A stretch of DNA of 64,000 nucleotides from an uncultured Syntrophaceae bacterium (GCA_964645835.1 CAZYDG010000080.1:1-64000), one strand, 5' to 3'; positions 3,753 through 54,017 are shown, numbered from the stretch's first letter. Translations and numbers: made by a program. The notes: generated by a model from the sequence alone, not told the origin.

Positions 3753-3966
3753 GCTTCTTTCCTTTGTGAGGTCTTTAACAGCCTGTCCAAATCGTGTTCT
3801 TCAATAACTTGTTCCTGGCTTATGGATGCCGGTTTCAAATTACTCTTTTTTCAGAAAAAATTATAGAATTTATCTAAAAATATATCTAAAATAATACTTC
3901 AAAGGGTACCTTCTTTACAGATTATCACACCATTTTAACCTCTATGGCAACAGGAAAGGAGTGTTT

Positions 3967-6483: not shown

Positions 6484-6613
6484 CGATATGGAGATGACAA
6501 CCATTAAGCTTTAGCCGAATCGAGTGGAGAGAAGCAGGGCATTGGCCTTCCGGGTCAAGAGATTCTTTCCATCTTTCATGTTGCAGATGGCTCCATTTGT
6601 GTGGGCGGGAAAA

Positions 6614-6706
6614 ATCCAATTCACCTCCGGGCCAATACCCCGCTTCTCTTGGTCAGACGTGCATCAAATCCCTTGGATTTTGGTGGTGGACTTGGGGGTG
6701 GACCTT
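6614..6706 (+). repeat. Roughly 95-nt conserved non-coding element, copy A, about 300 nt upstream of the atpE-like gene
   Basis: Aligns at about 70 % identity with 31382-31475 (caataccc.gct...ttggtcag.gtgcat...ttggattttggtggtgg.cttgg.ggtg). Both copies are + oriented and sit upstream of + strand energy-metabolism genes. Confidence 0.5.
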
Positions 6707-6997: not shown

Positions 6998-7375
6998 ATG
7001 GTAAGGAAATTGGGGAAAAGGTTTTTAACGCTGACTTCAGCAATGGCCGCTGTGCTTGTTTCTTCACCGGTCGTTTTCGCCGCTGAGGCCCTGCCGGCAG
7101 CAGGGGAGTCTTATGTTAAGGTTCTATTCGTGTTCGGAGCCATGTTGGGCGCAGGTCTTGCGATCGGCTTGGGCGCCATCGGCGCCGGCGCTGGTATCGG
7201 TAATGCGGCAAATGGCGCTTGTCAGGCTGTCGGAAGAAACCCTGGGGTTCAGGGAAAGATCATGACCGTCATGCTCGTCGGTATGGCCATGGCCGAATCG
7301 GTCGCCATTTACGCGCTGGTCGTCTCCTTGGTTCTTCTCTATGCAAACCCCTACGTGAAGTACTTTTTGGGTTAA
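6998..7375 (+). CDS. atpE: F-type ATP synthase c-subunit-like proteolipid with an N-terminal signal-peptide-like extension
   Basis: C-terminal 80 aa match the c-subunit hairpin (GAIGAGAGIGNAANGACQAVGRNP ... MAMAESVAIYALVVSLVLL, with a conserved carboxylate E). The N-terminus MVRKLGKRFLTLTSAMAAVLVSSPVVFAAEA looks like a Sec signal. Strong RBS AAGGAGAA. Confidence 0.7.
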   Translation: MVRKLGKRFLTLTSAMAAVLVSSPVVFAAEALPAAGESYVKVLFVFGAMLGAGLAIGLGAIGAGAGIGNAANGACQAVGRNPGVQGKIMTVMLVGMAMAESVAIYALVVSLVLLYANPYVKYFLG

Positions 7376-7425: not shown

Positions 7426-8733
7426 ATGACAGAAAAAAAGAATGATAAGCAGTTTTTCACGGTAGCAAGGGTCTTCTTCCTGCTTATCGTAATCCCCTTA
7501 TCACTGATGGCAATTCTTATCGCCAACGGCATCTTCAAATTAGGGGTTACAGTAAAAGAACGGGCTGTCACTGTTCTTGACCAAAAATCTCAGGAAGAAA
7601 TAAAAATTCGCGCCATGAACATGGCAGATGAAGTGACCAATTTCCTGAATGAACGGAAAAGGGATGTGATGATCGCCACGATCATTCCCTCCAATGAAGC
7701 CGTTTATAAGAAATTCGTCAATGAAAATCGGAGAAATCTATGGGTTAAAGAAGGCGACAAGATCCGTCAGGTCTCGGCGCCCATCTACAAAGAGATGGCC
7801 TTCATCGACAGGAACGGTAACGAGGTGATCAAAATCACCAACGGCGAAGTGGCTCCGAAGGCAAAACTTACCAATGTCGGCGTCCCCGCCAACACAACTT
7901 ACAAGAGTGAAGATTACTTTGCCAAGGCAAAAGGCCTGAATCAGGGTGAAATCTATGTTTCGCCTGTAACAGGCTGGTACGTCAACCGAGCCGCTTTTGA
8001 CAAGGGCGCACGTTTCGAAGGCATTGTCCGCTTTGCCACCCCCGTTTATGGAAAAGACGGGCTTCAGGGCGTCGTTGAGTTAGCCATGGACGCAAGGCAT
8101 CTGGAGGGATTCACGGATCATGTCATTCCGACATCGTCAACCCCCGTGTTCGAGGCCGATGCGTCGACAGGAAACTATGCCTACATGGTGGACAGCAGGG
8201 GATTCATCATCTCTCATCCCAACGATTATCATATCGAGGGACTGAACCAGGACGGAACGCCCGTTCCGGCCCTGACAAAAGAAACTTCGGAAGCCCTCTC
8301 CAAGAAGGGTGAAGAAGTGATTAACCTGAATCAGATGGGTTTTGTGGACCCCGTGATGCCGGAAGTCGCGAAGGATGCGAATGCCGGAAAAGCGGGCATC
8401 AAGACTTACAAGTTCGGCGGCCATACGAAGTTTGTAGCCTATGCGCCGATTAAATTCTACACCCAGGGGCTTCCCGCACCGGCTGGCTTCGGCTGGATCG
8501 GTATGGGTGTCGATCTGGAAAAATTCAATGAGATGGCGACGAAAGCGACCCAGAACATTGATAAGGAAGCGAAGGCCTGGACGACGACAATCATCCTCAT
8601 CCTGGTCATTTCCATCGTAATCCTCTTCCTCATCGCCGCTATCCTGGCCCGCGGTATTTCACGCTCCATTGCAGCGGAAATCCCCATCGGCTCCGAAGCG
8701 CCTTTCTATGATGACGAAGACGAAGATAAATAA
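7426..8733 (+). CDS. Double-Cache (dCache_1)-like periplasmic sensor protein, two TM helices, no recognisable output domain
   Basis: TM near the N-terminus and near the C-terminus bracket a roughly 330-aa periplasmic region with Cache-like composition. Short acidic C-terminal tail (FYDDEDEDK). RBS GGGGGAAAAAG. Confidence 0.65.
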   Translation: MTEKKNDKQFFTVARVFFLLIVIPLSLMAILIANGIFKLGVTVKERAVTVLDQKSQEEIKIRAMNMADEVTNFLNERKRDVMIATIIPSNEAVYKKFVNENRRNLWVKEGDKIRQVSAPIYKEMAFIDRNGNEVIKITNGEVAPKAKLTNVGVPANTTYKSEDYFAKAKGLNQGEIYVSPVTGWYVNRAAFDKGARFEGIVRFATPVYGKDGLQGVVELAMDARHLEGFTDHVIPTSSTPVFEADASTGNYAYMVDSRGFIISHPNDYHIEGLNQDGTPVPALTKETSEALSKKGEEVINLNQMGFVDPVMPEVAKDANAGKAGIKTYKFGGHTKFVAYAPIKFYTQGLPAPAGFGWIGMGVDLEKFNEMATKATQNIDKEAKAWTTTIILILVISIVILFLIAAILARGISRSIAAEIPIGSEAPFYDDEDEDK

Positions 8734-13139: not shown

Positions 13140-13179
13140 CGGCGTTACTTTAGCAGACTGTTGAAAAACTCTATCTTGG

Positions 13180-13302
13180 CCAGGCTGTTCAAAAATGTCC
13201 AGATGCAAGGCGCGCAAAAGCTGAGGAATGAGTCGTACATAGAGGTACGTCGATTGACGAGGCTTGCAGCGTAACGCAGCAGATGGGCGTTTTTCAACAG
13301 CC
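13180..13302 (+). mobile_element. MITE-like element, copy 1 (about 123 bp, imperfect terminal inverted repeats CAGGCTGTTCAAAAATG / CGTTTTTCAACAGCCTG)
   Basis: Near-identical to the reverse complement of 29973-30120. Its own ends are inverted repeats. No coding capacity. Confidence 0.5.
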
Positions 13303-15256: not shown

Positions 15257-16388
15257 GAACGCATTTCACAACAAGCTTCGCAGCGGCTTGACCATTTTCG
15301 GCATCGCCGTGGCCATCCTTGCCTTCGGCCTCCTTCGGACGGTCATCGGCGCCTGGTATGCCGGTGTCGAAGCTGCATCGACGTCACGCCTTGTCACCAG
15401 GAATGCCATTTCAATCATTTTTACGCTGCCCATTTCCTATAATGAAAAGATCCGCCAGATCGAGGGCGTGAAGAGGGTGTCCTATGGTAACTGGTTCGGC
15501 GGCATTTACATTGACGAGAAGAATTTCTTCCCCAATTTTTGTGTCGATGCCAAGACCTACTTTGATATTTATCCTGAATTCGCCCTTGCGCCCCAGGAGA
15601 AAAAGGCATTCCTGGCGGATCGGAAAGGCTTTGTCGCCGGACGGAAACTGGCCGCAAAATATGGATGGAAGATCGGTGATATAGTTACCCTCAAGGGGAC
15701 CATCTATCCGGGCAACTGGGATTTTGTCCTCCGGGGTATCTACAAAGGCAGGGATGAAACGGCGGACGAGACCCAATTCTATTTCCATTGGGATTACCTG
15801 AACGAAACCATGAAAAAAACGATGCCTCAGAGGGCAGATCAGGTGGGATTTTACATGATCGCCGTCACGAGGCCCGATGTGTCCGCCGACGTGGCCCTGG
15901 CCGTGGATCGGACTTTTAAAAACTCCCTTGCCGAGACGCTGACGGAAACGGAAAAGGCATTCAACCAAGGTTTTATTGCCATGAGTGGGGCCATCATCAC
16001 GGCCATTCAGATGGTCTCCTTTGTGGTTATTATCATCATCATGGCCGTCGTTGCCAATACGATGGCCATGACCACCCGGGAACGGCTCGGCGATTATGCG
16101 ATCATGAAAACCCTGGGATTTGGCAGCGGTTCCATTTCCGTCCTCATCTTCGGGGAATCCCTTGTCATCACCCTGACGGGCGGCCTTGCGGGAATGGCCC
16201 TGACCTTTCCCGCCGCGAAGGCCTTCGGCCATTCCCTTTCCATGTACTTTCCCGTTTTTCGCGTGGCAACGGATACGATCTACCTCGACCTTTTGGCGGC
16301 GTTCATCATCGCCTTCTGCGCTGCCCTCATCCCTACGCGCCATGCAATCAAGATCGGCATTGCCGATGGACTCCGGAGGATCGGATAG
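15231..16388 (+). CDS. ABC transporter permease, FtsX-like (MacB/LolC-type)
   Basis: N-terminal TM, large periplasmic domain, three C-terminal TMs typical of FtsX/MacB permeases. Overlaps the ATPase gene end. Confidence 0.8.
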   Translation: MLLIKILFRNAFHNKLRSGLTIFGIAVAILAFGLLRTVIGAWYAGVEAASTSRLVTRNAISIIFTLPISYNEKIRQIEGVKRVSYGNWFGGIYIDEKNFFPNFCVDAKTYFDIYPEFALAPQEKKAFLADRKGFVAGRKLAAKYGWKIGDIVTLKGTIYPGNWDFVLRGIYKGRDETADETQFYFHWDYLNETMKKTMPQRADQVGFYMIAVTRPDVSADVALAVDRTFKNSLAETLTETEKAFNQGFIAMSGAIITAIQMVSFVVIIIIMAVVANTMAMTTRERLGDYAIMKTLGFGSGSISVLIFGESLVITLTGGLAGMALTFPAAKAFGHSLSMYFPVFRVATDTIYLDLLAAFIIAFCAALIPTRHAIKIGIADGLRRIG

Positions 16389-17563
16389 TGGCCGTCCCTT
16401 TGTCTTACAGCGCCCGGAATCTTTGGAAACGCAGGATGACGACAATCCTGACCATCTCCGGCATGGCCCTGGTCGTCTTCGTCTTCGCCGCAGTTCTGAT
16501 GATGGCCGAGGGCCTCCAGAAGACCCTTGTGGAGATGGGCGCCTATGATAATGTCGTTGTCTTCCGTAAGGGGTCGACGTCGGAGGTCATGAGCAGTATC
16601 GAGCGCAAACAGGCTGCCATTGTGGAAATGATTCCCCAGGCCGCTGCAGGTCCTGACGGGAAACCGCTGTTGGCCAAGGAGGTCGTGGTCCTGATCGCCT
16701 TGCAGAAAAAGGGGGCTGCCAAGACGGCAAGCCACTCCAATATCGTGGTCCGCGGTGTACAGGAAGCATCGCTCCCATTGCGGCCACAGGTCAAACTCGT
16801 CTCGGGACGGCTTTTTAGAATGGGGTCATCGGAAATCATTGTCGGCAACAGTATTGCCAAGAACTTCAAAGGAGTCGGCCTTCAGGAGACTCTCCATTGG
16901 GGGCATCGGACTTGGACCGTCGTGGGGATTTTCGATGCGGGAAATACGGGATTCAGCTCCGAGATCTGGGGTGATGTGGACCAGGTCATGCAGGCCTTCC
17001 GGCGGCCCGTTTATTCGTCGATTATCTTCAAGCTCCAGGTCCCCGACGCCTACCAGGCCGCCAAATCGACACTGGAGAAGGACCCGCGCCTGACCCTGGA
17101 AGCCAAGCGGGAGACGACCTATTATCTCGATCAGTCAAAGATGATGGCCAAGTTCCTCCGCATTCTCGGCCTGTCCCTGACGATCATCTTTTCCATCGGG
17201 GCGGTCATCGGCGCAATGATCACCATGTATTCCGCCGTGGCCAACCGGATCGGGGAAATCGGCACCCTCCGGTCCCTGGGCTTCCTGCGGCGCGCCATTC
17301 TCCTGGCTTTCCTTGCCGAGTCGCTCCTTTTGGGTGGGATAGGAGGCGTCGTCGGCCTTTTCTGCGCCTCTTTCATGCAATTGATTACCGTCTCGACGGT
17401 GAACTTCCAAACCTTTTCGGAACTGGCCTTCAAGTTCACCCTCACGTGGCCAATCATCTTTCAGTCAATGGCCTTTTCGCTGTTCATGGGCCTCATAGGC
17501 GGCCTGCTGCCGGCCTTCCGCGCTGCCCGCATGAACATTGTCGAGGCACTCCGGGCTGCATAA
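16388..17563 (+). CDS. Second ABC transporter permease, FtsX-like
   Basis: Same architecture as the preceding permease. GTG start at 16388 overlapping the upstream stop (ATG at 16436 is an alternative). Confidence 0.8.
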   Translation: MAVPLSYSARNLWKRRMTTILTISGMALVVFVFAAVLMMAEGLQKTLVEMGAYDNVVVFRKGSTSEVMSSIERKQAAIVEMIPQAAAGPDGKPLLAKEVVVLIALQKKGAAKTASHSNIVVRGVQEASLPLRPQVKLVSGRLFRMGSSEIIVGNSIAKNFKGVGLQETLHWGHRTWTVVGIFDAGNTGFSSEIWGDVDQVMQAFRRPVYSSIIFKLQVPDAYQAAKSTLEKDPRLTLEAKRETTYYLDQSKMMAKFLRILGLSLTIIFSIGAVIGAMITMYSAVANRIGEIGTLRSLGFLRRAILLAFLAESLLLGGIGGVVGLFCASFMQLITVSTVNFQTFSELAFKFTLTWPIIFQSMAFSLFMGLIGGLLPAFRAARMNIVEALRAA

Positions 17564-18636: not shown

Positions 18637-21600
18637 TTAAAGCCGCCTGCATCCGGGGCCGGATAGTATGCTTCGCCCGCCGGACCCGGGCGTCACCTGA
18701 ATCTGTGTAGCGATGCGTTCCTTGAGGGCTGTCACATGAGAGATGACGCCGATTATTTTGCTGTCTTGCCGGAGGTTTGCCAGGGTTGCCAGGGCCGTTT
18801 CAAGGGCCTCATCGTCCAGGGTTCCGAAGCCTTCATCAAGAAAAAGGGAATCAACCCGGACTTTGCGGCTGGCCATCTGAGAAAGCCCGAGAGCAAGAGC
18901 CAGGCTCACGATAAAACTTTCGCCTCCGGAAAGGTTTTTGGCTGAACGGATTTCGCCTGCCTGGTAATTGTCGATAACATTGAGTTCCAGAGGTTCCCGC
19001 TCGTCACGAATCAGCAGATATCGATCCGTCATTTTCCGGAGACGCTGATTGGCCTGAAGAATCATCATCTCGAAGGTAAGTCCCTGGGCAAAATTCCTGA
19101 ACTTCTTCCCGTCGGCAGACCCGATCAACTGATGTAATGCCTCCCAATGATCCCGTTCTTTTTTTCGGGCTTCAATAATGTTCATATGTTCCCGTTGCTT
19201 CTCCCGGAGTATGCTATTGTTGTGCAGGCTGCCCTTGATGGCGCCTATAGCCTCCTGGATATGTTTTAATGACGATTCGACCTCTTCCAACTCATGGCGC
19301 AGGGCCTCCATGGGTTTGTCCGTCTCGTTCTTGGCTTTCTCGGCCGCCAAGGCCTCCGACCGGTCCTTCATACGGGCATCCAGTTCGGTTTTTTCTTTCA
19401 GCAGGGCATTCTCCCGTTCTGCCAGCCGGTCCCTCGATTCCTCGGTCAGGCGTGCGGCGACAAAGTCCTGTTCATCTGCAAACCCGGCTTTCGTGAGGCA
19501 TTCGGCCCATCGCCGTTCTGCCGGGACAGACTCCTCGGCCCTATGGTCCGTCTTCTCCGTCAGCACGGCGATCTTTTCTTTCAGGGCCCCGAGTTCGTTG
19601 GTCAAGGCCCCCTGGATCTCCCGTCCATGATTCAGTGCCGCCTCGGCCTGCGCCACAGCATCGGCCAGACTTTTTTCCTCTTCATCGGCGTTTTTGTCCG
19701 CGAAGATCTCGCGCCGGGCTGTCCGTAACGCTTCGTATTCTCCTACCAGGGCTTGCCGTTCCCCGCGCCGGGTTTCCAAATCCGCTTCAATTTTTGACAA
19801 TTCGGCCTGATCAAGAGTGATGCGGGTCTTGATCGCCTGGAGATTTTTCTCCAATTCATCCTTCTCTTGAGTCTTCTGCTGCCAGGCATCCCGTCGTTCT
19901 TCAAGATCCTTTAATACAGCATCGAGTCTTTCAGGCGAAACAGACAGCACACCGAAAGGCCTTACATCCTCCAGGGCTGCTGCGCCGGCCTTCTTAGCTT
20001 CTCTCTCCAGGTTGTCCACTTCTTCGGTCCGCCGCTTACGATCAAGCATAGCTGTTTCCTTCTTCAACCTCGATTCCTGAAGGGATTTGGCTGCAAGGTC
20101 TCGCTGTTCCCGCATTTTTTCCAGACCTTGACGGGCCTCTTGTTCCTTTTTAATGCGTTGTTCAACATCAGCGATGATTCGGTCGGTCTCCGTGATTTTA
20201 GCCAGTACATCCGCCCGGGTGTTCCGGACGAGAGCAGCCCGTTTTTCCGGTGAGGCCTGCAGATGAAGCTGAAGGAACCATTCGGCGCAATGCCGCTCAT
20301 CATTGGCCAGGGCTACCCGCTTTTCCCCTTCCTCATTTTCCAGAAAGGCAATGCGGGTCTGTGTCCGAACTGCTTCGTTTTCCAGCTTGCCCAGGGCCTC
20401 TGCTGTCTTTTTGACATCTTTCCTGGCCTCTTGCAGGGCCTCCTCGGCACGGTTCATCTCGGGGATTTGGCCCGGTTGCCCGTAAGGATGATCGACAGCG
20501 CCGCAGAGGGGACAAGGCTTGCCGTCTTCAAGCCGTTTCCTTTCTTCTTCGAGATCGCGGATGTGGCCTAAGAGGGCCACTTGGGTCTCCTGAGTTTGCA
20601 CATCCCTATCCAGAAGGGCCTTGCGATCCGAAAGCGTCTTTATCTCCCCAAGAAGAGCTCCATGGGCATTCTTTAAGGCCTCGATGTCAAGGGTCATCCC
20701 ATTTATAGCGGTCCGGATCTTGTCTGCCCGCTCGACGGCATCACCCGCTTGCGCCAGGATGCGTTCCCTGTCCTTCATGGCACTGTTCTCCTTGTGCCAA
20801 TCACCGATATGGCGGCCCCGAAGGATCGCTGCCATTTCATCGGCCAAACCCTTCAGCTCCCGTTGTCCCTCCTCGCATTGACGGTCATATTTTTCATGGT
20901 TTGCGGCGATTTTCGCATGAGATTCTGCGGTAGCCTCCTGGAGACTTTCCGCCGCGGCAAGGTCTTTCTTTGCCTTTTCATACTTGACCAAAAGTTCGCG
21001 AAGGGTTGCAAACCCTCTGGCAACGGCGGAAAACTGGGTCGCCACAAGTTTATCGGCTTCATGGGCGGTCAGGTATTCCCGGATCGACTCCAAATTGGCA
21101 GTCGTCTCCTTCAAATCCTGATCGAGGTTCTGGAGGCTGTTCTTGAAGGCCATCTCCTGGTATTCCAGGGGTCTGATAGTCTTTTTCTTATCGTCGGCCT
21201 GCTTTTTCCGTTCCGCCGACCGGATGTCAATGTCCCGCACCTTCTTTATGACCTCTCCCGTATCCTGCTGCCGCAATCGCACCTCGGCCAGGGCATTCTC
21301 GGCTATCGATTTCCGGGCTATTGCTTCGGCCAAGGCCTGTTCCTTATCCGGATAGGTGGCCACAGCTTCGGCAAGCTCTTTTATCTCCATTGCCTGGTCA
21401 CGGCGCATGACCAGAACGGCCCGATAATCTCCTTCGAGGCCGTCGGCCTTCCGGGCCCGTTCCAGGGATGCTTTATCCGGGGCAAAAGACATCCAATGTG
21501 TCTCCAAGGTTTCCCATTGGCGGTGAAGTTCGGCGATTGACGTCTCCAAAGCGGTTACCGTTTCCAGCCATAGGACGGTCTTGCGGAGGTCGGCAGCCCG

Positions 21601-22311
21601 ACGGCTGAAGGTCCCTTCTAGGACACTCTTGTGCGAGAGATCCCCTTCCAGAGCCTTCACATCCTGTTCGTTCAGCACTTGGAAACCGTTGAACTCGGCC
21701 TGCAACAGGTCGAGACTGGCTCGTTCTTTCCGTAGACGTTCATGAACGTTCATAGAGATGCGGCTGTAGATCTCCGTGCCCGTGATCTGCTCCAGGATGG
21801 GCGCCCGTTCGTCCGGCGGGGCCTGGAGGAAAGCCGCAAATCCGCCCTGGGCCAGGAGCATGGACCGTGTGAAACGATCGAAGTCCATTCCCGTGACGTT
21901 TTCAATAAAGGCACCTACCTGGACGATCTTCGATTCCAGGACGGCCCCGGAATCGGCATCGGCAATTTCATGGCGTGCCTGCTGCAACTCGCCGCCGGGC
22001 AGTTTCCTGGCGCGGCGCTGGCTCCAGTGGCACCTGTACCGGCCCTTTTGGGTTTCGAAGGTCACTTCTGCAAAACACTCTCCCGTCTGCAGGGACATGA
22101 TTTCATTGCCGGTCTTCGTGACTCTCTCAAGGCGCGGTGTCCGGCCGTAAAGAGCGAGGCATAAGGCGTCCAGGATAGTCGTCTTGCCCGCCCCCGTGGG
22201 CCCCGTAATGGCAAATATGCCGTCGGAGGCGTAATCGGGGTGGGTAAAGTCAACCTGCCACTCGCCCTCAAGAGAATTCAGGTTTTTAAAACGTATACCA
22301 AGAATCTTCAT
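18637..22311 (-). CDS. sbcC: Exonuclease SbcC (SMC-like ATPase)
   Basis: 1224 aa. N-terminal Walker A (GPTGAGKTT), long coiled-coil with central CPLCG zinc hook, C-terminal signature/Walker B (LSGGESF...LFLDEGFGTLD). Confidence 0.92.
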   Translation of the reverse strand: MKILGIRFKNLNSLEGEWQVDFTHPDYASDGIFAITGPTGAGKTTILDALCLALYGRTPRLERVTKTGNEIMSLQTGECFAEVTFETQKGRYRCHWSQRRARKLPGGELQQARHEIADADSGAVLESKIVQVGAFIENVTGMDFDRFTRSMLLAQGGFAAFLQAPPDERAPILEQITGTEIYSRISMNVHERLRKERASLDLLQAEFNGFQVLNEQDVKALEGDLSHKSVLEGTFSRRAADLRKTVLWLETVTALETSIAELHRQWETLETHWMSFAPDKASLERARKADGLEGDYRAVLVMRRDQAMEIKELAEAVATYPDKEQALAEAIARKSIAENALAEVRLRQQDTGEVIKKVRDIDIRSAERKKQADDKKKTIRPLEYQEMAFKNSLQNLDQDLKETTANLESIREYLTAHEADKLVATQFSAVARGFATLRELLVKYEKAKKDLAAAESLQEATAESHAKIAANHEKYDRQCEEGQRELKGLADEMAAILRGRHIGDWHKENSAMKDRERILAQAGDAVERADKIRTAINGMTLDIEALKNAHGALLGEIKTLSDRKALLDRDVQTQETQVALLGHIRDLEEERKRLEDGKPCPLCGAVDHPYGQPGQIPEMNRAEEALQEARKDVKKTAEALGKLENEAVRTQTRIAFLENEEGEKRVALANDERHCAEWFLQLHLQASPEKRAALVRNTRADVLAKITETDRIIADVEQRIKKEQEARQGLEKMREQRDLAAKSLQESRLKKETAMLDRKRRTEEVDNLEREAKKAGAAALEDVRPFGVLSVSPERLDAVLKDLEERRDAWQQKTQEKDELEKNLQAIKTRITLDQAELSKIEADLETRRGERQALVGEYEALRTARREIFADKNADEEEKSLADAVAQAEAALNHGREIQGALTNELGALKEKIAVLTEKTDHRAEESVPAERRWAECLTKAGFADEQDFVAARLTEESRDRLAERENALLKEKTELDARMKDRSEALAAEKAKNETDKPMEALRHELEEVESSLKHIQEAIGAIKGSLHNNSILREKQREHMNIIEARKKERDHWEALHQLIGSADGKKFRNFAQGLTFEMMILQANQRLRKMTDRYLLIRDEREPLELNVIDNYQAGEIRSAKNLSGGESFIVSLALALGLSQMASRKVRVDSLFLDEGFGTLDDEALETALATLANLRQDSKIIGVISHVTALKERIATQIQVTPGSGGRSILSGPGCRRL

Positions 22312-22326
22312 CGGCCTTTCTCCATC

Positions 22327-23556
22327 TTATTCTGCCATCGGGTCTGCTTCATTCAGGGAAACCAGGATTTCCCGATAAGCGCTGAGCAAGACTTCCCGTT
22401 GTTCTTTCGGCACATCGCGGCTCTCCAGGCAACGCTGAAAAACCTCCATCACATCCAGATCATCCAGATGTTCCTCGCCGTCCGTCAAGTTCAAGGCCTT
22501 TGCCATGATCCGGTTGTTCCGGATTCGGAGGATTGAAAGTTCCGTTCCGGCTACGGCCTCTTCCAGGCGCTCCCGGAGAACCCCGGCCATTTCGTCGCCG
22601 TTGTATACTATCTCAAGCCAAGCCCTGCTTCCTTCGGCCCGAAGGCTGTCGATGGCCCGGGCTATGGCCGGCCAATCTCCCTGGATGGTCTGAAGTGCCT
22701 GAAATACTGGGACGAAAACGATCTTGACTGTCGGCGCGGCGCCCGAGAATTCCACAAGGCAGACGCCCTTCTTTTGTGCCCCCTCGTTAAAGCCGATAGG
22801 CAGGGGAGAGCCGCAGTAGCGGATAACCTCCGAGCCGCCTACGGTCTGGGGGACGTGGAGATGGCCCAAGGCGACGTAGTCGATGGCCGGTGGAAAGACA
22901 TCGGTCCGGACCTGGGCCAAAGAGCCGATATACAATTCCCGCACCCCGTCACCATCAACTATCCGGCTGCCGGCGGCAAACAGATGGCCCATAGCGATGA
23001 GTGGAACGGACTGTTTCAAGGCAGCCCGCTTTGTCTCGGCAGCTTTGCAAACCTGCCGGTAATGGTCCCTGATTCCTTCGATGATCTTTCGTTCCTTATC
23101 ATCGGCGCTTTCACCAGCCTCGGTGACACGGATATCGCGGTCCCGAAGATATGGTACAGCACAGACGAAAAGAGCGGGTTTCCCGTCGGGTCCGTCAAGT
23201 ACGATGAGTTCATCGGCGGGATCATCGGTGATGCAGCCCACAACATGAACATTGAGACATTTCAGAAGCTCACGTGGTGCGTTCAGAAACGACGCCGAAT
23301 CGTGATTTCCCGCCGTGACGACGACGTGGCGGTCAGGGGCGGCCGCAACACGGCAGAGAAAGCGATAATACAAGGTTTGGGCACGGTTGCTGGGCGTACT
23401 GTTATCAAAGACATCGCCCGCCACGAGGAGGACGTCGATGCTCTCCGACTCTATGAGATCCGCCAGCCAATTTAAAAATGCCTCATATTCCTCGTAGCGG
23501 CTGCGCTCGTAAAGGGCCCGGCCAATGTGCCAATCGGAAGTATGGAGAACCTTCAT
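22327..23556 (-). CDS. sbcD: Exonuclease SbcD (Mre11-like phosphoesterase)
   Basis: MKVLHTSDWHIG calcineurin-like phosphoesterase motifs. Directly upstream of sbcC on the same strand. Confidence 0.9.
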   Translation of the reverse strand: MKVLHTSDWHIGRALYERSRYEEYEAFLNWLADLIESESIDVLLVAGDVFDNSTPSNRAQTLYYRFLCRVAAAPDRHVVVTAGNHDSASFLNAPRELLKCLNVHVVGCITDDPADELIVLDGPDGKPALFVCAVPYLRDRDIRVTEAGESADDKERKIIEGIRDHYRQVCKAAETKRAALKQSVPLIAMGHLFAAGSRIVDGDGVRELYIGSLAQVRTDVFPPAIDYVALGHLHVPQTVGGSEVIRYCGSPLPIGFNEGAQKKGVCLVEFSGAAPTVKIVFVPVFQALQTIQGDWPAIARAIDSLRAEGSRAWLEIVYNGDEMAGVLRERLEEAVAGTELSILRIRNNRIMAKALNLTDGEEHLDDLDVMEVFQRCLESRDVPKEQREVLLSAYREILVSLNEADPMAE

Positions 23557-23752
23557 ATTCGTCCTTTTTAAGCCTCTTTGATAAACAGATTTAGCAGCAT
23601 TTTCAGCCAAATTCTATACCTTTTTCCAAAGCACAAGTTCCAATATTTTCATTTGGCGTATTTTTATTGACATATGGGCGGCGGCTCATTATCCTCATGT
23701 CATTTTAAAACCCTGACTTATATCTTTTCAATCGAAGCGACGAGGCGAATCG

Positions 23753-29972: not shown

Positions 29973-30120
29973 CAGGCTGTTGAAAAACGTCCATCCCACG
30001 CTTTCGCGGGGACGGCGTCTGCTGCGTTGCGCCGCAAGCTTCTTCAATCAAAGTACTTCTATGTACGTCTCATTCCTCAGCTTTTGCGCGCCTTGCATCT
30101 GGGCATTTTTGAACAGCCTG
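29973..30120 (-). mobile_element. MITE-like element, copy 2 (inverted relative to copy 1)
   Basis: Reverse complement aligns with 13180-13302 at high identity, including both terminal inverted repeats. Confidence 0.5.
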
Positions 30121-30165
30121 CCCAACATCATGTTTTCAACGACTCGCTAAGATTCCTGAATCAAA

Positions 30166-30220
30166 GTAGTCCATCCCTTCAGGGCTGCAAGAAAGCAGGG
30201 CTGAAGCCCTGCACTACATT
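30166..30220. repeat. REP-like palindromic repeat (hairpins cagccc/gggctg and cagggct-gaa-gccctg)
   Basis: Matches 43474-43532 (gtagtcca.ccctt.agggctg...aagaaagcagggct.aagccctgc.ctacatt). Confidence 0.4.
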
Positions 30221-31212: not shown

Positions 31213-31381
31213 GGCCGGATCGTCTATCAGAAATGCCCATAACCTGCAAGCCCTATGGTAATCGTAATTTGTACTAAATTTCAGCCAAATCGAATGGAAG
31301 ATAGCGAGGCATTACCTCTCCGGGTCAGGGGATTTTTCTTCTATTTCACCTGCAGATGACGCCACTGAGGCGAGTTGGAAT

Positions 31382-31475
31382 ATCCCATTCACCTTCAACC
31401 AATACCCTGCTACCCCATTTCTTTGGGTCAGGGTGCATTGTAGTCTTTGCATTTTGGTGGTGGGTTGGAGGTGAT
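31382..31475 (+). repeat. Roughly 95-nt conserved non-coding element, copy B, about 240 nt upstream of hdrL
   Basis: See copy A at 6614-6706. Confidence 0.5.
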
Positions 31476-43473: not shown

Positions 43474-43532
43474 GTAGTCCAGCCCTTTAGGGCTGTAAAA
43501 AAGAAAGCAGGGCTAAAGCCCTGCGCTACATT
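43474..43532. repeat. REP-like palindromic repeat, second copy
   Basis: See 30166-30220. Confidence 0.4.
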
Positions 43533-49286: not shown

Positions 49287-50252
49287 TCAAAGCGTGATTT
49301 TTCCTCGGCAGGAACTTCCCATTCCTGCGGTGCAGCCGTAACAATGTTCCCCGGTGACGATCTGGCGGGTGGCGAGTTTGGCCAGGTTAAATTGTGAAAT
49401 ATGCTCCGGGGCACCGTGATTCACGGTCATGCCCAGCATCTGGTTGAAGTCGCAATCATAGAGCTTACCGTCCCAGGCAACAGACAGGGTGGTTTTGCAC
49501 ATGACGTTCGAAAGGGTCTCCCGATTGAAGGCATTGACCAAAGTCGCCATATAGTCTTCATAATTGCCGGTTCTTTGAAGATAGGCCAAATACCGGCCAA
49601 TGGGCATGTTCGTAATGCAAAAAAGATTGTTGAAAGAGATACCGAATCTTTCTTTGAGCGCTTTCCGGTAATGGTCTTCGAGACTTTCCTGTAAGCCTGG
49701 AAGATAGGCCCCGCTGGGATTATAGACCAGATTCAGGATCAGTCCATTATCGCCCTGCCCATACCCTTTTTTATTGATTTTCAGAAGGCAGTCAATTAGC
49801 CGAGAATAGACGCCTGCACCTCGTTGCCGGTCTGTTGTCTTTAAATCCATATGGGGAAAGGATATGATGATTTCTACGCGATAACGGGCATAGAGATCAA
49901 GAAGATGGGCATATGCTTTTTCAAGAAGAATCACGCCGTTTGTACGTACAAGCAATCGGCGGCCCAAAGCAGCGCATTGTTCAAGAAACCAGGTGAAATC
50001 GGGGTGCATCTCCGGGGTTCCGCCCGTGATGTCGATAGCCGGAATGGCATGACGTCTCAAAACCTGAAGGCACATCTCCATCACTGACCGCGGCATGAGT
50101 TCCAGCCGCCCCGGACCCGCTTCGACATGGCAATGCCTGCATTCCAGGTTGCACCGGTATCCAAGGTTGATCTGGAATACATCGATTCCTGCCGCTTTCA
50201 AAGGGCTGTCCGACATCTGTTCGAAGGATGGATGCATGGAGCTTCCGTCCAT
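49287..50252 (-). CDS. Radical SAM / Cys-rich-domain protein of the ArsS-like family
   Basis: CNLECRHC (CxxxCxxC) rSAM motif. C-terminal Cys-rich tail (CDFNQ...EHCYGCTAGMGSSCRG). Translationally coupled to the upstream AhpD-like gene. Confidence 0.8.
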   Translation of the reverse strand: MDGSSMHPSFEQMSDSPLKAAGIDVFQINLGYRCNLECRHCHVEAGPGRLELMPRSVMEMCLQVLRRHAIPAIDITGGTPEMHPDFTWFLEQCAALGRRLLVRTNGVILLEKAYAHLLDLYARYRVEIIISFPHMDLKTTDRQRGAGVYSRLIDCLLKINKKGYGQGDNGLILNLVYNPSGAYLPGLQESLEDHYRKALKERFGISFNNLFCITNMPIGRYLAYLQRTGNYEDYMATLVNAFNRETLSNVMCKTTLSVAWDGKLYDCDFNQMLGMTVNHGAPEHISQFNLAKLATRQIVTGEHCYGCTAGMGSSCRGKITL

Positions 50253-50254
50253 TG

Positions 50255-50587
50255 TTACATTTCCTTTTTCTTAACGATTTTTCTCATTTGCGTGGAATGA
50301 GCCAGAACGACGCCGGCAGTGATGGCCGCGCCTACATGAACGGATTCCATCATTTCCTCTTGGGAAATGCCAAGAGAAAGGCACTCATTTGTATAAGCGT
50401 CGATGCAATAAGGGCACCTCTGCGTTGTGGACACGGCCAGGGCGATCAGCGCTTTTTCCCTTGCCGTCAGGGCGCCGGCTTTCATCGCCTCGCCATAGTA
50501 TGCAAAATACATCTCCCCCAAGGCCGGTGCATATTCGCCGATATTTGTGAAATCCGTCAGGTCTTTTGACTCATAATAGTCAGACAT
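50255..50587 (-). CDS. AhpD-like / carboxymuconolactone decarboxylase family protein (CxxC peroxidase-like)
   Basis: 110 aa. CMD-family signature TQRCPYCIDAY. RBS AAGGAAA. Confidence 0.75.
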   Translation of the reverse strand: MSDYYESKDLTDFTNIGEYAPALGEMYFAYYGEAMKAGALTAREKALIALAVSTTQRCPYCIDAYTNECLSLGISQEEMMESVHVGAAITAGVVLAHSTQMRKIVKKKEM

Positions 50588-50622
50588 ACAGCCGTTTCCT
50601 TTCCATGTCTTGTCCCGTTATG

Positions 50623-51243
50623 TCAGGGACGCAGGAGCCGTGCAGCACCTGCCATGGTTTCGACAATATCGTACATGTTTGAAATGTGCCCCACGGCAAT
50701 TTGGTCTCCAAGGCTGAAATAGTTGATGCAGGTCCCGCAAACCAGAATCTCTGTCCCGGCCTTTTCCAATGACTGCAAATCATCCAGGACAGTCGAGTCT
50801 CCAGTAGCCAGCTTGACGCCGGCATTATAACAAATAATGGTATCGGGCAGAGGTTTCAATTGTAGAAGGGTATGGATAAAGCTTCGTATCAGAACATCCC
50901 CCAGAGTATCATCACCTCGTCCCATGCGGTTGTCCGAAAGGACTACAACAAGGGCGCCCGTTGCCTTTTCAGTAGAGCAGGCAAGCTCTTCAGCAAAGGC
51001 CTCGGCATCCATCTGGTGCTCCTCCGACGCTGCTGTTCGGGCCAAAAAAATTTCCCGGATACCGTTTCCTCTATCAGTTACAGAGACAGTGCAGGCCATT
51101 TTAACAGCGAGTCGCCGAATATTCTCCACTGCGGCGTCATTATCGACGAGGATGGTCATGGCTTGGTTGTCTTCGATGGCCTTTTTCGCCAAAATTACAG
51201 GTTGCGGGCAGGCAAGCCCTCGGGCGTCAATGGTTACCGGCAT
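50623..51243 (-). CDS. yedF: YedF-like protein (N-terminal TusA/SirA-like CPxP domain fused to a DsrE/DsrF-like domain)
   Basis: ARGLACPQPV TusA motif, followed by a DsrE-like domain with conserved Cys (ILVCGTC). Confidence 0.75.
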   Translation of the reverse strand: MPVTIDARGLACPQPVILAKKAIEDNQAMTILVDNDAAVENIRRLAVKMACTVSVTDRGNGIREIFLARTAASEEHQMDAEAFAEELACSTEKATGALVVVLSDNRMGRGDDTLGDVLIRSFIHTLLQLKPLPDTIICYNAGVKLATGDSTVLDDLQSLEKAGTEILVCGTCINYFSLGDQIAVGHISNMYDIVETMAGAARLLRP

Positions 51244-51337
51244 AGGTTATGTCCTTTTATCAGTTGCTTGATAGCAACATTATTTCATGATCCTTTCTCA
51301 CCTGCAAGGTCTTTCAGCAACAGATCTTTCAGTAATA

Positions 51338-51865
51338 GAATTGAGATGTGCGGGGCATTGGTCTTACGGTTCAGGTGATTTTCCCCTATTTCAATTGCAG
51401 TTTACGGTAGTTATACCAGTTGGGGAAAATCATATTTACCTCCAGACCAAACCCCGCCCATCCTGTACAGATTTTATCAAAGTATTTGTGGTTCTGTGGT
51501 GTATTACAGATGGAATTGAGATGTGCGGGGCATTGGTCTTTACGGTTCAGGTGATTTTCCCCTATTTCAATTGCAGTTTACGGTAGTTATACCAGTCGGG
51601 AAAAATCATATTCACCTTCAGACCAAAACCCCGCCCATCCTGGACAGATTTTTTCAAAGTATTTGTGGTTCTGTGGTGTATTACAGATGGAATTGAGATG
51701 TGCGGGGCATTGGTCTTACGGTTCAGGTGATTTTCCCCTATTTCAATCGCAATTAACAGCAGTTATACCAGTCGGGAAAAATCATATTCACCTCCAGACC
51801 AAAACTCCGCCCATCTTGGGCAGCTTTTATTAAAGTCTTTTGGGCTTTTGTGGTGTATTCGGAAA
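51338..51865. repeat. Three tandem direct repeats of about 176 bp, each with nested inverted repeats (predicted extended hairpin)
   Basis: Units begin at 51338, 51513 and 51690 (gaattgagatgtgcggggcattggtc...). Within each unit GCGGGGCATTGGTC pairs with GACCAAACCCCGC, and GATTTTCCCC pairs with GGGGAAAATC. Confidence 0.8.
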
Positions 51866-51922: not shown

Positions 51923-53269
51923 TCACGCGATTTTGTTGCTTCTTCTCCAGATACCCTGATTTTGTGCTGCTTTGATCAGGTCGTCACGCTTGTCGGGATG
52001 GGCGATGCTGATGAGCAGGGCCGCCCGTTCCCATGTGGATTTCCCTTTAAGGTTGACCATGCCGAATTCTGTCACGATATAGTGCACAACCGTATATGGA
52101 ACCGTAACGATGGCTCCGGGCGTCAGTGTGGGGACAATTCGTGATTTGATTTCTCCACTTTTCTTATTAAGTTTCGTCGCGCTCATGCAAATGAAAGCCT
52201 TTCCTCCCTTAGAGAGATAGGCGCCGTAAGTGTAGTCGAATTGCCCGCCCGTCCCGGATATCTGCCTTACGCCTGACGACTCGGAACAGACTTGACCGTA
52301 AAGATCGATTTCCACTGCGTTGTTGATGGCCACCATGTTGTTGTTCATGGCGATGCGCGAGGGATTATTGGTATAGTCGCAAGGATATATTGCACAAGTG
52401 GGATTATGATCGAGAAATTCGTAGAGCTTGGAACTTCCCATGGCGAAAGTATAGACCATTTTACCTGTATCCACAGACTTCTTCGAATTGTTGACTCGAC
52501 CTGCCTGACACATGTCGACAAACGAGTCACAAAGCATTTCCGTATGGACGCCTAGATCTTTCAAGTCGGATTGAGCAATCATCATCCCGACCGCATTCGG
52601 CATGCCGCCGATACCAAGTTGAATGCACGAGCCATCATGGATCTCATCGACGATAAATTTGGCAATCTTGCTGTCTTCCTCGCTCATCGGGAGTGCTGGT
52701 ACACTGAAGAGCGGCTGGTTGTCTGATTCGACGATATGGTGCACTTCGGAAATATGCAGCGCTTCGCTAAAGCCGCCATAGCAGTAAGGAACAGCATCGT
52801 TCACTTCAACGATAATCTTCTTTGAGCGACGGCTGGTGGCCTTGGACGACGAGCATGATGGCCCGAAATTGAAGTAGCCGCTCTTGTTCATCGGGGCAAC
52901 TTTCACGATGAAAACGTCTGACTGGCAGAACCCATTGTCCCAGTAGGAAGCGCCTTCAGAATAGAGAAGGGGAATGTAATTGCAAAGTCCTTTGTCGTGA
53001 AGCATGCGATCACCACCGCTGAAATGCCAGCAGTTGTAGTTGAACTTCTCCCGCGTGGGATCCGCCACTGCGACGGCTGCCAGACCCGGATAAGTGACTC
53101 CGCACACATTGACATCGGTTAATTCATCGGCTCGTTTGGCCAGAAACGGATCAAGATATGTCGGAGAGCAGGCAAAGTGACCGTAATTCACCCAATCGCC
53201 GGATTTTACGATGCCAACAGCGTCCTCGGCAGTAGTCAGTTTATTCTTGTATTCTTCCATGTAATTCAT
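51923..53269 (-). CDS. abfT: 4-hydroxybutyrate CoA-transferase (acetyl-CoA hydrolase/transferase family)
   Basis: About 448 aa. Family-typical N- and C-terminal CoA-transferase domains. RBS AAGGAGA before ATG 53269 (the ORF track starts further upstream). Confidence 0.85.
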
Positions 53270-53282
53270 GGCATATTCTCCT

Positions 53283-54017
53283 TTAAGGTTTGATGAACGG
53301 TTTTGGTACGGGAATAATTGCTTTTCCGTAAGCCGTGTTAACCATGATCGCACCGGCATGATAGAGCGAACTGAGACCGATGAATACAAAGCCATAAGCG
53401 ATGATCAACTTTGTCGTCTTGACATCGATGATACTGAACCATCCAGTATCCAGACCCGCAAGGAGGAATAGCAGGATATCGGCCAAAACAAATCCTGAAA
53501 AGAAAACCCAACTTCCCCGAGCATAGCATGGGGTCGCAACGGTCAGAAATCCTGCGCCTGCCATCCACATCCAGCCTTCAACATGCACCGCTTTCTGAAT
53601 CATGGCGCCGACGGCTGGACCGACACTAGACATAGCCGTCTTGATCTGGTCGGGAGACAGCATGTCCGGCTTCAGGCCGGCAGCGGCAGCGGCCGCTTCC
53701 AGGGCCGCCTTGGCGGCTTTAGGTCCAAATATGAAGGAAATCATATACCATTTCATAAAGACGCTCATGGCTGCCGCCAACATGAAAAAAGCGCTGAAGA
53801 AAAGAAAAACGTTGCCGCCTGCAATGTTATGATCTTTCATCTCCACAATGCCTACAATAAACTGTACGATAAAACCGGCTACGAGCCAGCAGGCCAGAAG
53901 CGGTAGACCGTTTACATCCACTAATCCGAGAAAATAGGCCGCAAATCCGAAAACGGCAATTGCCAGCGCTCCTAAACCCGCCGGAGCCGGTGATGCAAAA
54001 CTGTGATCTTGAGACAT
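53283..54017 (-). CDS. GPR1/FUN34/YaaH (SatP)-family acetate/succinate transporter
   Basis: Six TM helices. N-terminal (N/S)PAPxGL motif ([14 protein letters not shown]). RBS AAGGGGGG. Confidence 0.75.

What the first reader, a model, noticed from the sequence alone, without database searches (positions are those of the whole stretch)
51338..51865. Three tandem 176-bp repeats with nested long-range complementarity, immediately upstream of the YedF operon
Units start at 51338, 51513 and 51690 and are near-identical. Each unit contains an outer pairing (GCGGGGCATTGGTC with GACCAAACCCCGC) and an inner pairing (GATTTTCCCC with GGGGAAAATC), predicting an extended hairpin of about 120 nt.

The array lies between the end of abfT and the start of yedF, which fits a tandemly amplified structured ncRNA or leader, a triplicated promoter/operator module, or a MITE-like insertion array.

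It is not CRISPR-like: the units are long, and there are no unique spacers.
Basis: seen in the sequence. Interest (0 to 1): 0.6.

Follow-up and report, generated by a model that had tools for sequence, protein, structure and literature searches.

The report
Triplicated copy of dispersed hairpin repeat
The three 176-bp repeats are real, but they are a local triplication of one member of a family of about 180-bp hairpin-forming repeats scattered between unrelated genes in this Syntrophus genome, so they look like a selfish or structural repeat element, not a control element specific to the YedF operon.

Summary
There are three head-to-tail units of 175-177 bp at 51338-51865, 88-95% identical, and each holds a roughly 120-nt imperfect hairpin.

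The unit is not unique to this locus. Diverged copies (about 70-83% identity) lie at window 6510-6706 and 31280-31474. A further full copy and a half-copy fragment lie 1.2-1.5 kb upstream of the window start. That makes four unrelated intergenic loci in 83 kb, all in the same orientation.

The stems covary. G·U wobbles and folding energies show that the folded strand is the window's minus strand, which is the coding strand of abfT and yedF.

No copy was found in about 130 kb from the closest relatives, including the orthologous hslO and atpE loci. The one exception is a relic upstream of yedF in one relative. I found no match in Rfam, phages, plasmids, E. coli genomes or the two large contig collections, and no conserved promoter, terminator or consistently open reading frame.

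Best reading: a lineage-specific, non-autonomous, REPIN/MITE-like hairpin repeat, amplified locally by tandem duplication. A family of multi-copy small RNA genes remains possible. A yedF-specific leader or operator is very unlikely. This is a new member of a known kind, of modest interest.

The parts
51338..51512 (-). Repeat unit 1, the unit nearest yedF. Hairpin core 51344-51462 plus a CA-rich tail on the minus strand.
   Evidence: TRF, alignment, folds
51513..51689 (-). Repeat unit 2. Hairpin core 51519-51640.
   Evidence: Best match to covariance model R1: 200.8 bits.
51690..51865 (-). Repeat unit 3, the unit nearest abfT and the most diverged. Hairpin core 51696-51817.
6510..6706 (-). Solo family member A, about 70% identical to the array units and 83% identical to copy C. 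It lies 26 nt beyond the stop of the + strand SPFH gene (3961-6483) and upstream of an ATP-synthase-c-like gene (6998-7375).
   Evidence: blastn, nhmmer E=1e-49, CM 169 bits, folds
31280..31474 (-). Solo family member B, about 70% identical to the others and partly decayed. It lies 67 nt upstream of the hslO (HSP33) start codon at 31212(-), in the divergent spacer shared with the HdrA-like gene at 31717(+).
   Evidence: blastn, nhmmer E=1e-46, CM 68.8 bits. The long hairpin forms only on the minus strand, and only as RNA.
51923..53395 (-). Upstream flanking gene: acetyl-CoA hydrolase/transferase family (abfT-like).
   Evidence: Pfam PF02550 and PF13336
50623..51243 (-). Downstream flanking gene: TusA-domain YedF-like protein, first gene of the yedF-CMD-radical SAM (DUF3641) cluster.
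   Evidence: Pfam PF01206. Homologues are named 'selenium metabolism protein YedF' by their sources.

Best explanation
The array is a head-to-tail triplication of one resident member of a lineage-specific family of non-coding intergenic repeats, each about 180-190 bp. Read on the window's minus strand, a member has three parts: a weakly conserved CA-rich 5' tail of about 45 nt, an imperfect hairpin of about 120 nt, and a short conserved 3' end (CTCGATTCGGCTGAAA-like). The hairpin has a variable outer stem, a conserved GCGGGGUAUUGG stem, two conserved asymmetric internal loops (GGA and GAAU on the 5' side, CUUGA and GGA on the 3' side), an AU-rich inner stem and a variable apex.

Shown: the family is dispersed; the hairpin is kept by compensatory and wobble changes; the minus strand is the better-folding strand; partial and decayed copies exist; close relatives lack the element at orthologous loci.

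Inferred: (1) The elements spread, or once spread, as non-autonomous hairpin-dependent DNA elements (REPIN/MITE-like), using an enzyme encoded elsewhere in the genome that recognises the single-stranded hairpin. (2) The 3-unit array arose at this site by unequal recombination or replication slippage that copied the element together with its flanking tail, as described for REPIN clusters. (3) For the host the array is mostly neutral. It lies in sense orientation between abfT and yedF, so any read-through transcript would carry three very stable hairpins (-46 to -53 kcal/mol each). These could act as an exonuclease barrier, an RNase III target or an insulator between the two transcription units.
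For: Dispersed family:
- blastn with word size 7 and an nhmmer profile find copies at window 6516-6702 and 31286-31474.
- The 9.2 kb upstream of the window holds one more full copy (L015:7717-7891) and a fragment with one arm only (L015:~7981-8040).
- All copies are intergenic, all are in the same orientation, and their neighbouring genes are unrelated: SPFH/atpE-like, hslO/HdrA-like, epimerase/hypothetical, and abfT/yedF.

Structure under selection:
- On the model-guided alignment of 4 independent copies, 88.5% of pair cells are standard pairs, against 44-55% when partners are slid by 1-3 columns.
- 6 pairs show changes on both sides, and one outer-stem position shows A-U, C-G, G-C and U-A in the four lineages.
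- The covariation score is 0.329, against 0.222 in shuffles (2 of 500 reach it).

Strand:
- There are 21 G·U cells on the minus strand, against 5 A·C cells that would be G·U on the plus strand.
- With RNA parameters the minus-strand core folds better in 6 of 6 copies, by 1.6 to 10.9 kcal/mol. With DNA parameters it folds better in 5 of 6.

Non-coding:
- No reading frame is open across all copies.
- The 99-aa ORF that crosses unit 1 has no relative among 1.84 billion protein representatives.

Not a conserved gene or leader:
- The CM search with filters off finds nothing in 62 kb (L017-19) plus 69 kb (L020-22) from the closest relatives (Lon 88-89% identical, HdrA-like protein 91-95% identical). 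These stretches include the orthologous hslO-HdrA spacers and the atpE-upstream regions.
- In L013, yedF follows a sigma-54 activator gene after only 15 bp. L014 keeps only a diverged relic at the same place.

Known parallel:
- REPINs form hairpins 'in ssDNA or mRNA'. [quoted passage not shown] REP singlets are remnants of REPINs (PMC3116915, read).
Against: - No transposase or RAYT gene lies in the 83 kb examined. The rest of the genome could not be searched.
- No target-site duplications and no clean empty site were found, so mobility is not demonstrated.
- Only four loci were seen, so the genome-wide copy number is an extrapolation.
- Copies at different loci are only 70-83% identical, which means no evidence of recent transposition.
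- The internal loops are more conserved than the stems. Copy B forms the long hairpin only as RNA. Both points would also fit a protein-binding structured RNA.
- Three of four loci have the folded strand in sense orientation 67-104 nt upstream of a start codon, which could hint at a role in transcripts.
Confidence: 0.55

Rival explanations
1. The elements are a multi-copy family of small RNA genes, or of cis-acting structured RNA modules, transcribed from the minus strand. The conserved internal loops (including a GGAGGUGA Shine-Dalgarno-like motif) would bind a protein, ribosomes or mRNAs. The array would then be a tandem gene amplification, as seen for some sRNA families.
For: - The stems covary, and the G·U pattern points to one strand.
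- The internal loops are the best-conserved parts.
- Copy B keeps the long hairpin only with RNA parameters.
- At 3 of 4 loci the folded strand runs in the same direction as the downstream gene and ends 67-104 nt before its start codon.
Against: - Neither strand of the unit carries a conserved promoter or an intrinsic terminator.
- The element is absent from orthologous loci and from about 130 kb of the closest relatives.
- A truncated one-arm copy and a decayed copy exist.
- Copy A is antisense to its neighbours.
- There is no Rfam match, even at permissive thresholds.
Confidence: 0.22
2. The elements act as DNA-level architectural or protein-binding sites, like BIMEs, which bind IHF, gyrase and Pol I. 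They could also be extruded cruciforms or single-strand hairpins that act during replication. The array would be a cluster of such sites.
For: - The arm motifs are conserved, and all four loci share the same chromosomal orientation.
- The hairpins are also stable with DNA parameters: -20 to -29 kcal/mol, z = -4 to -6.5.
- REP/BIME clusters are reported to bind IHF, DNA polymerase I and gyrase (PMC3184786).
Against: - No binding motif of a known protein was identified.
- The wobble asymmetry and compensatory changes argue for a single-stranded form, not a duplex site.
- With only four loci, a shared orientation has a 1 in 8 chance of arising by accident.
Confidence: 0.1
3. The array is a regulatory element specific to the yedF operon: a riboswitch or leader, or a triplicated promoter/operator.
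For: The array lies 80-95 nt upstream of yedF, and the units carry a strong structure.
Against: - The same element sits at three other, unrelated loci.
- In L013, yedF has no such element.
- About 95 nt of sequence conserved with L014 lies between the array and the yedF ATG. This stretch is the likelier place for the gene's own signals.
- The units contain no promoter consensus.
Confidence: 0.03
4. Each element encodes a micro-peptide of 12-15 aa on the minus strand (for example MIFPDWYNYRKLQLK), preceded by GGAGG and occluded by the hairpin. This would resemble a leader peptide or a type I toxin-like module.
For: - Every lineage has a GGAGG/GAAGG motif followed 3-5 nt later by ATG or TTG.
- The distance from the start codon to a conserved CTGCA(A/G) is 33 nt in all four lineages, despite indels.
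- This was read from the sequences.
Against: - The stop position is not conserved: the peptides would be 10, 12, 15 and 98 aa long.
- The peptides are poorly conserved and are not hydrophobic.
- The start codon shifts column between copies.
- The sample is too small for a test of synonymous against non-synonymous change.
Confidence: 0.04

Closest known systems
[quoted passage not shown]
   Same: - Both are non-coding, extragenic and dispersed.
- Both are long imperfect hairpins built from two inverted arms around a less conserved spacer.
- Both show compensatory changes across the hairpin and an asymmetric single-stranded tail.
- Half elements survive as remnants in both.
- Ordered clusters are tandem repeats of nearly identical elements that include flanking sequence, which is exactly the architecture at 51338-51865.
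   Different: - This element is larger: the hairpin is about 120 nt and the whole element about 180-190 nt.
- The arms do not contain an obvious short 20-40-bp REP palindrome, and there is no conserved GTAG/CGTC head.
- No RAYT gene was seen in the 83 kb available.
- Copies at different loci are much more diverged (70-83% identity) than typical REPIN populations.
Bacterial MITEs with long RNA stem-loops (ERIC/RU-1 127 bp, RU-2 168 bp, Correia/NEMIS, RUP; reviewed in PMC3184786 and PMC2759123)
   Same: - Both are under 200 bp, intergenic and multi-copy.
- Both fold into long, thermodynamically stable stem-loops.
- Both can carry short ORFs and functional motifs.
- Both are often co-transcribed with neighbouring genes.
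   Different: - No target-site duplication was found, and no related autonomous IS.
- The inverted repeat is not terminal: conserved asymmetric tails lie outside it.
- The outermost stem is the most variable part, whereas in a MITE the ends are the best-conserved transposase-binding part.
- There is no sequence similarity to E. coli genomes, which hold ERIC, REP and BIME.
MIRUs and BOX-type interspersed minisatellites (from my own knowledge; Supply et al. 1997 is listed in the references of PMC3184786)
   Same: The unit is both dispersed at several intergenic loci and tandemly repeated at some of them. It is often oriented with the surrounding operon and contains small ORFs.
   Different: MIRUs are 46-101 bp and are not long hairpins. 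BOX elements are modular (boxA-B-C). There is no sequence relationship to either.
Tandem sRNA gene arrays (for example NsiR1 or LhrC-type; from my own knowledge)
   Same: Near-identical structured units are repeated head to tail in an intergenic region.
   Different: In those arrays each unit carries its own promoter and terminator. Here neither was found.

Membership tests
REPIN/REP-RAYT system | Two inverted arms plus a spacer fold into a long hairpin, with compensatory changes | tested here: met
   Folds. Covariation: 88.5% of cells paired, 6 pairs changed on both sides.
REPIN/REP-RAYT system | Each arm contains a short (20-40 bp) REP palindrome with a conserved GTAG or CGTC head (PMC3733652 abstract) | tested here: not met
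   The aligned arms have no conserved GTAG/CGTC at either end; GTAG occurs only in copy B. No conserved small palindrome is present in all copies.
REPIN/REP-RAYT system | A cognate RAYT (Y1 HUH transposase) gene in the genome, usually flanked by the repeats | not testable with these tools
   No transposase-like gene lies in the window or its two 10-kb extensions. The rest of the 914-kb contig and of the assembly could not be read.
REPIN/REP-RAYT system | Many copies dispersed in extragenic space, with some ordered tandem clusters that include flanks | tested here: inconclusive
   Four loci in 83 kb and one 3-unit cluster that includes the tail. The genome-wide number is unknown.
Classical MITE | Terminal inverted repeats at the very ends of the element | tested here: not met
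   The inverted repeat is internal. About 45 nt of conserved tail lies outside it on one side and about 15 nt on the other.
Classical MITE | Flanking target-site duplication | tested here: not met
   No shared direct repeat flanks copies A, B, C or the array.
Classical MITE | Under about 200-400 bp, no transposase gene, folds into a long stem-loop at the RNA level | tested here: met
   The element is 180-190 bp, no frame is open across copies, and the hairpins are stable.
Classical MITE | Insertion polymorphism or an empty site in related genomes | tested here: inconclusive
   The element is absent at the orthologous hslO and atpE loci of relatives. However, the surrounding spacer DNA is not alignable there, so no precise empty site can be defined.
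Any Rfam RNA family | A match to a curated covariance model | tested here: not met
   No match at gathering score in the whole window. Permissive scans give only chance-level hits: osmY at E=2.2 and SNORD87 at E=0.53.
CRISPR array | Short repeats of 24-48 bp separated by unique spacers, usually near cas genes | tested here: not met
   The units are 176 bp and contiguous, with no spacers. The neighbouring genes are metabolic.
yedF-specific leader or riboswitch | Conserved upstream of yedF orthologues and restricted to that context | tested here: not met
   L013 has no element and L014 has only a relic. Copies also sit at three unrelated loci.

The most novel reading that the evidence does not exclude
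The elements could be a so far undescribed class of structured RNA modules of about 180 nt, specific to one Syntrophus lineage and read from the minus strand. Their covarying hairpin would present conserved internal loops, including a perfect Shine-Dalgarno-like GGAGGUGA, and would occlude a 12-15-codon micro-ORF. The modules would multiply both by dispersal and by tandem duplication, making them mobile regulatory RNA cassettes and not inert repeats.
Probability: 0.12. Interest if true: 0.55.

Novelty: new member of a known kind. Interest (0 to 1): 0.3.

Why it matters
If the main reading holds, this adds a new hairpin-repeat family to the catalogue of bacterial REPIN/MITE-like elements. It comes from a poorly studied syntrophic deltaproteobacterial lineage, it shows clear compensatory evolution and a clear folded-strand signal, and it is easily mistaken for a regulatory RNA upstream of a selenium/arsenic-related operon.

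There are two practical consequences. The array should not be annotated as a yedF riboswitch or leader. The family may also break assemblies, and its tandem copy number may vary between strains.

The family would matter more if it proved to be transcribed and functional, or if its mobilising enzyme turned out to be new.

Tried and rejected
- **Genome-contig scan.** The invariant 19-mer GGTTCAGGTGATTTTCCCC gave 4 hits. All were chance matches of 19-20 nt only. Neither this genome nor a carrier of the array is in that collection.
- **Metagenome-contig scan.** The family-conserved pattern GGCATT-N7-8-CGGKTCARG-N45-75-ATTYACCT gave 7 chance hits, none confirmed by nhmmer. The pattern would have missed copy C (ATTCGCCT), so its sensitivity is limited.
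- **Viral-contig scan.** A relaxed pattern gave 1 chance hit, rejected by the CM.
- **blastn 'distant'.** No match against plasmids, phages or E. coli genomes.
- **Rfam.** Nothing at gathering or permissive thresholds.
- **Protein trick.** I searched the 99-aa ORF that crosses unit 1 against 1.84 billion representatives, hoping for spuriously called ORFs in other copies. There were 0 hits.
- **Exact look-up of the abfT product.** It is not on record, because the annotation uses a different start.
- **Empty-site test at the hslO and atpE loci.** Relatives lack the element, but their spacers are too diverged to define insertion boundaries.
- **Target-site duplications.** None found.
- **Sigma-54 or sigma-70 promoter inside the unit.** None found by eye or by scan.
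- **Literature.** No paper mentions 'SKADARSKE-3', and none combines Syntrophus with MITEs.
- **Rejected readings.** CRISPR, integron attC, retron, 6S RNA, type I toxin (the peptide is too short and not hydrophobic) and aromatic-amino-acid leader peptide (the downstream genes are unrelated).

Full report
**Source.** The window is identical to part of contig JARLUC010000001.1 of assembly GCA_030920355.1. A source names this a MAG, 'Syntrophus sp. SKADARSKE-3'. Window position 1 corresponds to record position 827691.

**1.
- Tandem Repeats Finder reports one array in the whole 64 kb: 51338-51859, period 176, 3.0 copies, 92% matches.
- The three units (51338-51512, 51513-51689, 51690-51865) align with 95% mean column identity. 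The first 58 positions are invariant apart from one indel, and differences cluster in the hairpin apex and the 3' part.
This hairpin is far more stable than shuffled sequence on either strand (z = -4.6 and -5.2).
- Both flanking genes are on the minus strand. The abfT-like CoA-transferase gene (51923-53395) ends about 60 nt before the array. The TusA/YedF gene (50623-51243) starts about 80-95 nt after it and is followed by CMD-family and radical-SAM/DUF3641 genes.

**2. The unit is not unique to this locus.**
- A low-stringency blastn of unit 1 against the window found two further matches on the same strand, at about 6534-6643 and 31321-31410, with 70-72% identity.
- Aligned with flanks, homology runs through the whole unit. 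It starts at a head motif (TTTCAGCC-AATCGAG), passes through the hairpin, and ends in a G/T-rich tail (TTTTGGTGGTGG).
- An nhmmer profile finds exactly five copies in the window: three in tandem, plus 6516-6702 and 31286-31474.
- I fetched 10 kb on either side of the window. The upstream piece holds one more full copy (L015:7717-7891, about 1.4 kb before the window start). About 100 nt further on it also holds a fragment with only one arm (L015:~7981-8040). Both sit in one spacer between two minus-strand genes. The downstream extension holds none.
- In total there are four loci in 83 kb, all in the same orientation, all intergenic, and next to unrelated genes: SPFH/ATP-synthase-c-like, HSP33/HdrA-like oxidoreductase, epimerase/hypothetical, and abfT/yedF.
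- Identities between loci are 69-74%, except copies A and C at 83%.

**3. The structure is under selection, and on one strand.**
- I built a covariance model (R1: 181 positions, 38 pairs) from the minus-strand alignment and used it to align four independent copies.
- On that alignment 88.5% of pair cells are standard pairs, against 44-55% when the 3' partners are slid by 1-3 columns. Six pairs change on both sides. One outer-stem pair shows A-U, C-G, G-C and U-A in the four lineages. The covariation score exceeds all but 2 of 500 shuffles. With four sequences, and an alignment fitted to the model, this is supportive but not conclusive.
- Independent per-sequence folds agree. With RNA parameters the hairpin core is more stable on the minus strand in all six full copies, by 1.6, 7.2, 5.0, 5.3, 10.2 and 10.9 kcal/mol. 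Copy B forms the long hairpin only on the minus strand. With DNA parameters the minus strand wins in 5 of 6 copies, and copy B forms the long hairpin on neither strand.
- Across the aligned pairs there are 21 G·U cells on the minus strand, against 5 A·C cells that would be G·U on the plus strand.
- The most conserved parts are the middle stem (GCGGGGUAUUGG paired with CCAAUGCCCCGC, with a fixed U·G) and the two asymmetric internal loops. The outer stem, the apex and the tail vary.

**4. It is not a known RNA, a coding sequence or a locus-specific regulator.**
- Rfam gives nothing at gathering score over the whole window, and only chance-level hits in permissive scans of the copies.
- No reading frame stays open across copies. 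The 99-aa ORF that crosses unit 1 has no relative among 1.84 billion protein representatives.
- Consensus scans find no sigma-70 promoter or intrinsic terminator that recurs in the units or the solo copies.
- YedF orthologues do not share the element. In the relative with 83% identical YedF (L013), a sigma-54 activator gene ends 15 bp before yedF. In the relative with 88% identical YedF (L014, whose contig ends 184 bp upstream), the 95 nt next to yedF are conserved. Beyond them only a diverged relic of one arm remains (CGTAAGGCTAATGCCCCAC). It can pair with a short upstream partner, but the fold is no more stable than shuffled sequence.

**5. Distribution.**
- The closest relatives were found through Lon (88-89% identical) and the 1474-aa HdrA-like protein (91-95% identical). 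Together they gave about 130 kb of sequence.
- This sequence includes the orthologous hslO-HdrA spacers and the region upstream of the ATP-synthase-c-like gene.
- The covariance model, run with filters off, finds no member there.
- At the orthologous spacers the conserved host sequence stops short of the element, and the rest is not alignable. The element is therefore absent, but no precise empty site can be defined.
- Pattern scans of the GTDB representative genomes, JGI metagenomes and IMG/VR gave only chance matches.
- blastn against plasmids, phages and E. coli genomes gave nothing.
- As far as these searches reach, the family is restricted to this lineage.

**6. Interpretation.**
- A functional RNA gene or leader conserved at its locus should have orthologues in relatives whose neighbouring genes are 90% identical. 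It does not.
- A purely neutral relic should not keep a 120-nt hairpin through compensatory and wobble changes in copies that are 30% diverged.
- The combination fits a population of non-autonomous elements whose propagation depends on a single-stranded hairpin. The points that fit are: dispersed intergenic copies; hairpin selection on one strand; truncated and decayed members; the same chromosomal orientation at all loci; restriction to one lineage; and one ordered tandem cluster.
- The published description of REPINs matches point by point. [quoted passage not shown]
- Reviews of bacterial MITEs describe the same size range, the long RNA-level stem-loops, the occasional ORFs, and effects on neighbouring transcripts. 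For REP/BIME they also describe effects on mRNA stability and binding of IHF, gyrase and Pol I (PMC3184786 and PMC2759123).
- The unit junction in the array reads tail ...GTATTACAGATG followed directly by head GAATTGAG..., without the TTTCAGCC part seen in solo heads. This fits duplication of element plus tail by unequal recombination or slippage. It does not fit three independent insertions. This point is inference.

**7. Membership.**
- The element works like a REPIN or MITE, but I do not file it as either.
- The arms show no conserved short REP palindrome and no GTAG/CGTC head.
- The inverted repeat is not terminal, and there are no target-site duplications.
- No RAYT or other transposase lies in the 83 kb seen.
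- The remainder of the genome could not be read with the tools left.

**8. Rivals.**
- A multi-copy sRNA or structured-RNA module, at about 0.2, remains the main rival. The internal loops are the best-conserved parts. Copy B keeps the long hairpin only as RNA. Three of four loci place the folded strand in sense orientation 67-104 nt upstream of a start codon.
- A DNA-level architectural site is possible, at about 0.1.
- A yedF-specific leader or operator is essentially excluded.
- A micro-ORF is a curiosity. It has a GGAGG motif, ATG or TTG 3-5 nt later, and 33 nt to a conserved CTGCA(A/G) in all four lineages. The peptides would be MIFPDWYNYRKLQLK, MGYSNSPQWRHLQVK and MDFSRPHKRSHL. Its stop position is not conserved (10, 12, 15 and 98 codons) and the peptides are neither conserved nor hydrophobic, so I rate it low.

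**9. Verdict.** The array is a local amplification of a dispersed, lineage-specific hairpin repeat. It is a new member of a known kind, and the interest is modest (0.3). The most useful next step is a whole-genome census with the model built here, together with a search for a cognate transposase and strand-specific transcript mapping.

Noticed in passing
window 13158-13300 (+) and window ~29975-30145 (-): A second, unrelated intergenic repeat family. The two copies are 88% identical over 124 nt. Each is about 145 nt and is bounded by perfect 12-bp terminal inverted repeats, CTGTTGAAAAAC ... GTTTTTCAACAG. This is a more classical MITE-like layout. A similar-looking motif is repeated in relative L018 at 8169-8269 and 16344-16444.
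   Followed up: partly
window 30166-30220 and 43474-43532: Another short repeat, 85% identical over 59 nt, shared by two intergenic regions. This genome seems to carry several small repeat families.
   Followed up: no
window 51562-51610 (-), 31366-31413 (-), 6581-6619 (-); L015:7788-7826 (-): A tiny ORF lies inside the element on the minus strand, 3-5 nt after a conserved GGAGG/GAAGG. The peptides would be MIFP(N/D)WYNYRKLQLK in units 1-2, MGYSNSPQWRHLQVK in copy B and MDFSRPHKRSHL in copy C. Copy A has no stop at that place. The distance from the start codon to a conserved CTGCA(A/G) is 33 nt in all lineages, but the stop position and the peptide sequence are not conserved.
   Followed up: partly
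window 51301-51308 and 31243-31250 (motif CCTGCAAG on +, CTTGCAGG on -): The same CTTGCAGG motif lies between the element and the start codon of both yedF and hslO. It is conserved in relatives that lack the element (L014, L020, L021), so it belongs to the host upstream regions. It does not fit a sigma-54 or sigma-32 consensus by eye.
   Followed up: partly
window 49287-51243 (-): A gene cluster of yedF (TusA-domain), a CMD-family gene and a radical-SAM gene with DUF3641 lies next to genes typical of 4-hydroxybutyrate/acyl-CoA metabolism: an abfT-like gene, an HpaB-like gene (possibly 4-hydroxybutyryl-CoA dehydratase), an acyl-CoA dehydrogenase and a thiolase.
   Followed up: no
window 4239-5147 (+), inside the 840-aa SPFH-domain gene 3961-6483: Internal repeats of about 222 nt, about 66% identical. 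They correspond to several copies of a 74-aa module (...FIKNGGQKGPQIEVLPPGxYRINPxLFK...) placed N-terminal to the Band 7 domain.
   Followed up: no
window 18637-23610 (-): sbcC and sbcD, which encode the nuclease that cleaves hairpins and palindromes, lie in the same window as the long-hairpin repeats. The repeats have 35-nt loops and mismatches, which may spare them.
   Followed up: no
L016:11548-19233 (just downstream of the window end): A VgrG-like gene (Phage_GPD/base_V), DUF2169 with pentapeptide repeats, DUF3540 and PAAR-like toxin genes follow a methyltransferase gene. This looks like a type VI secretion effector island.
   Followed up: no
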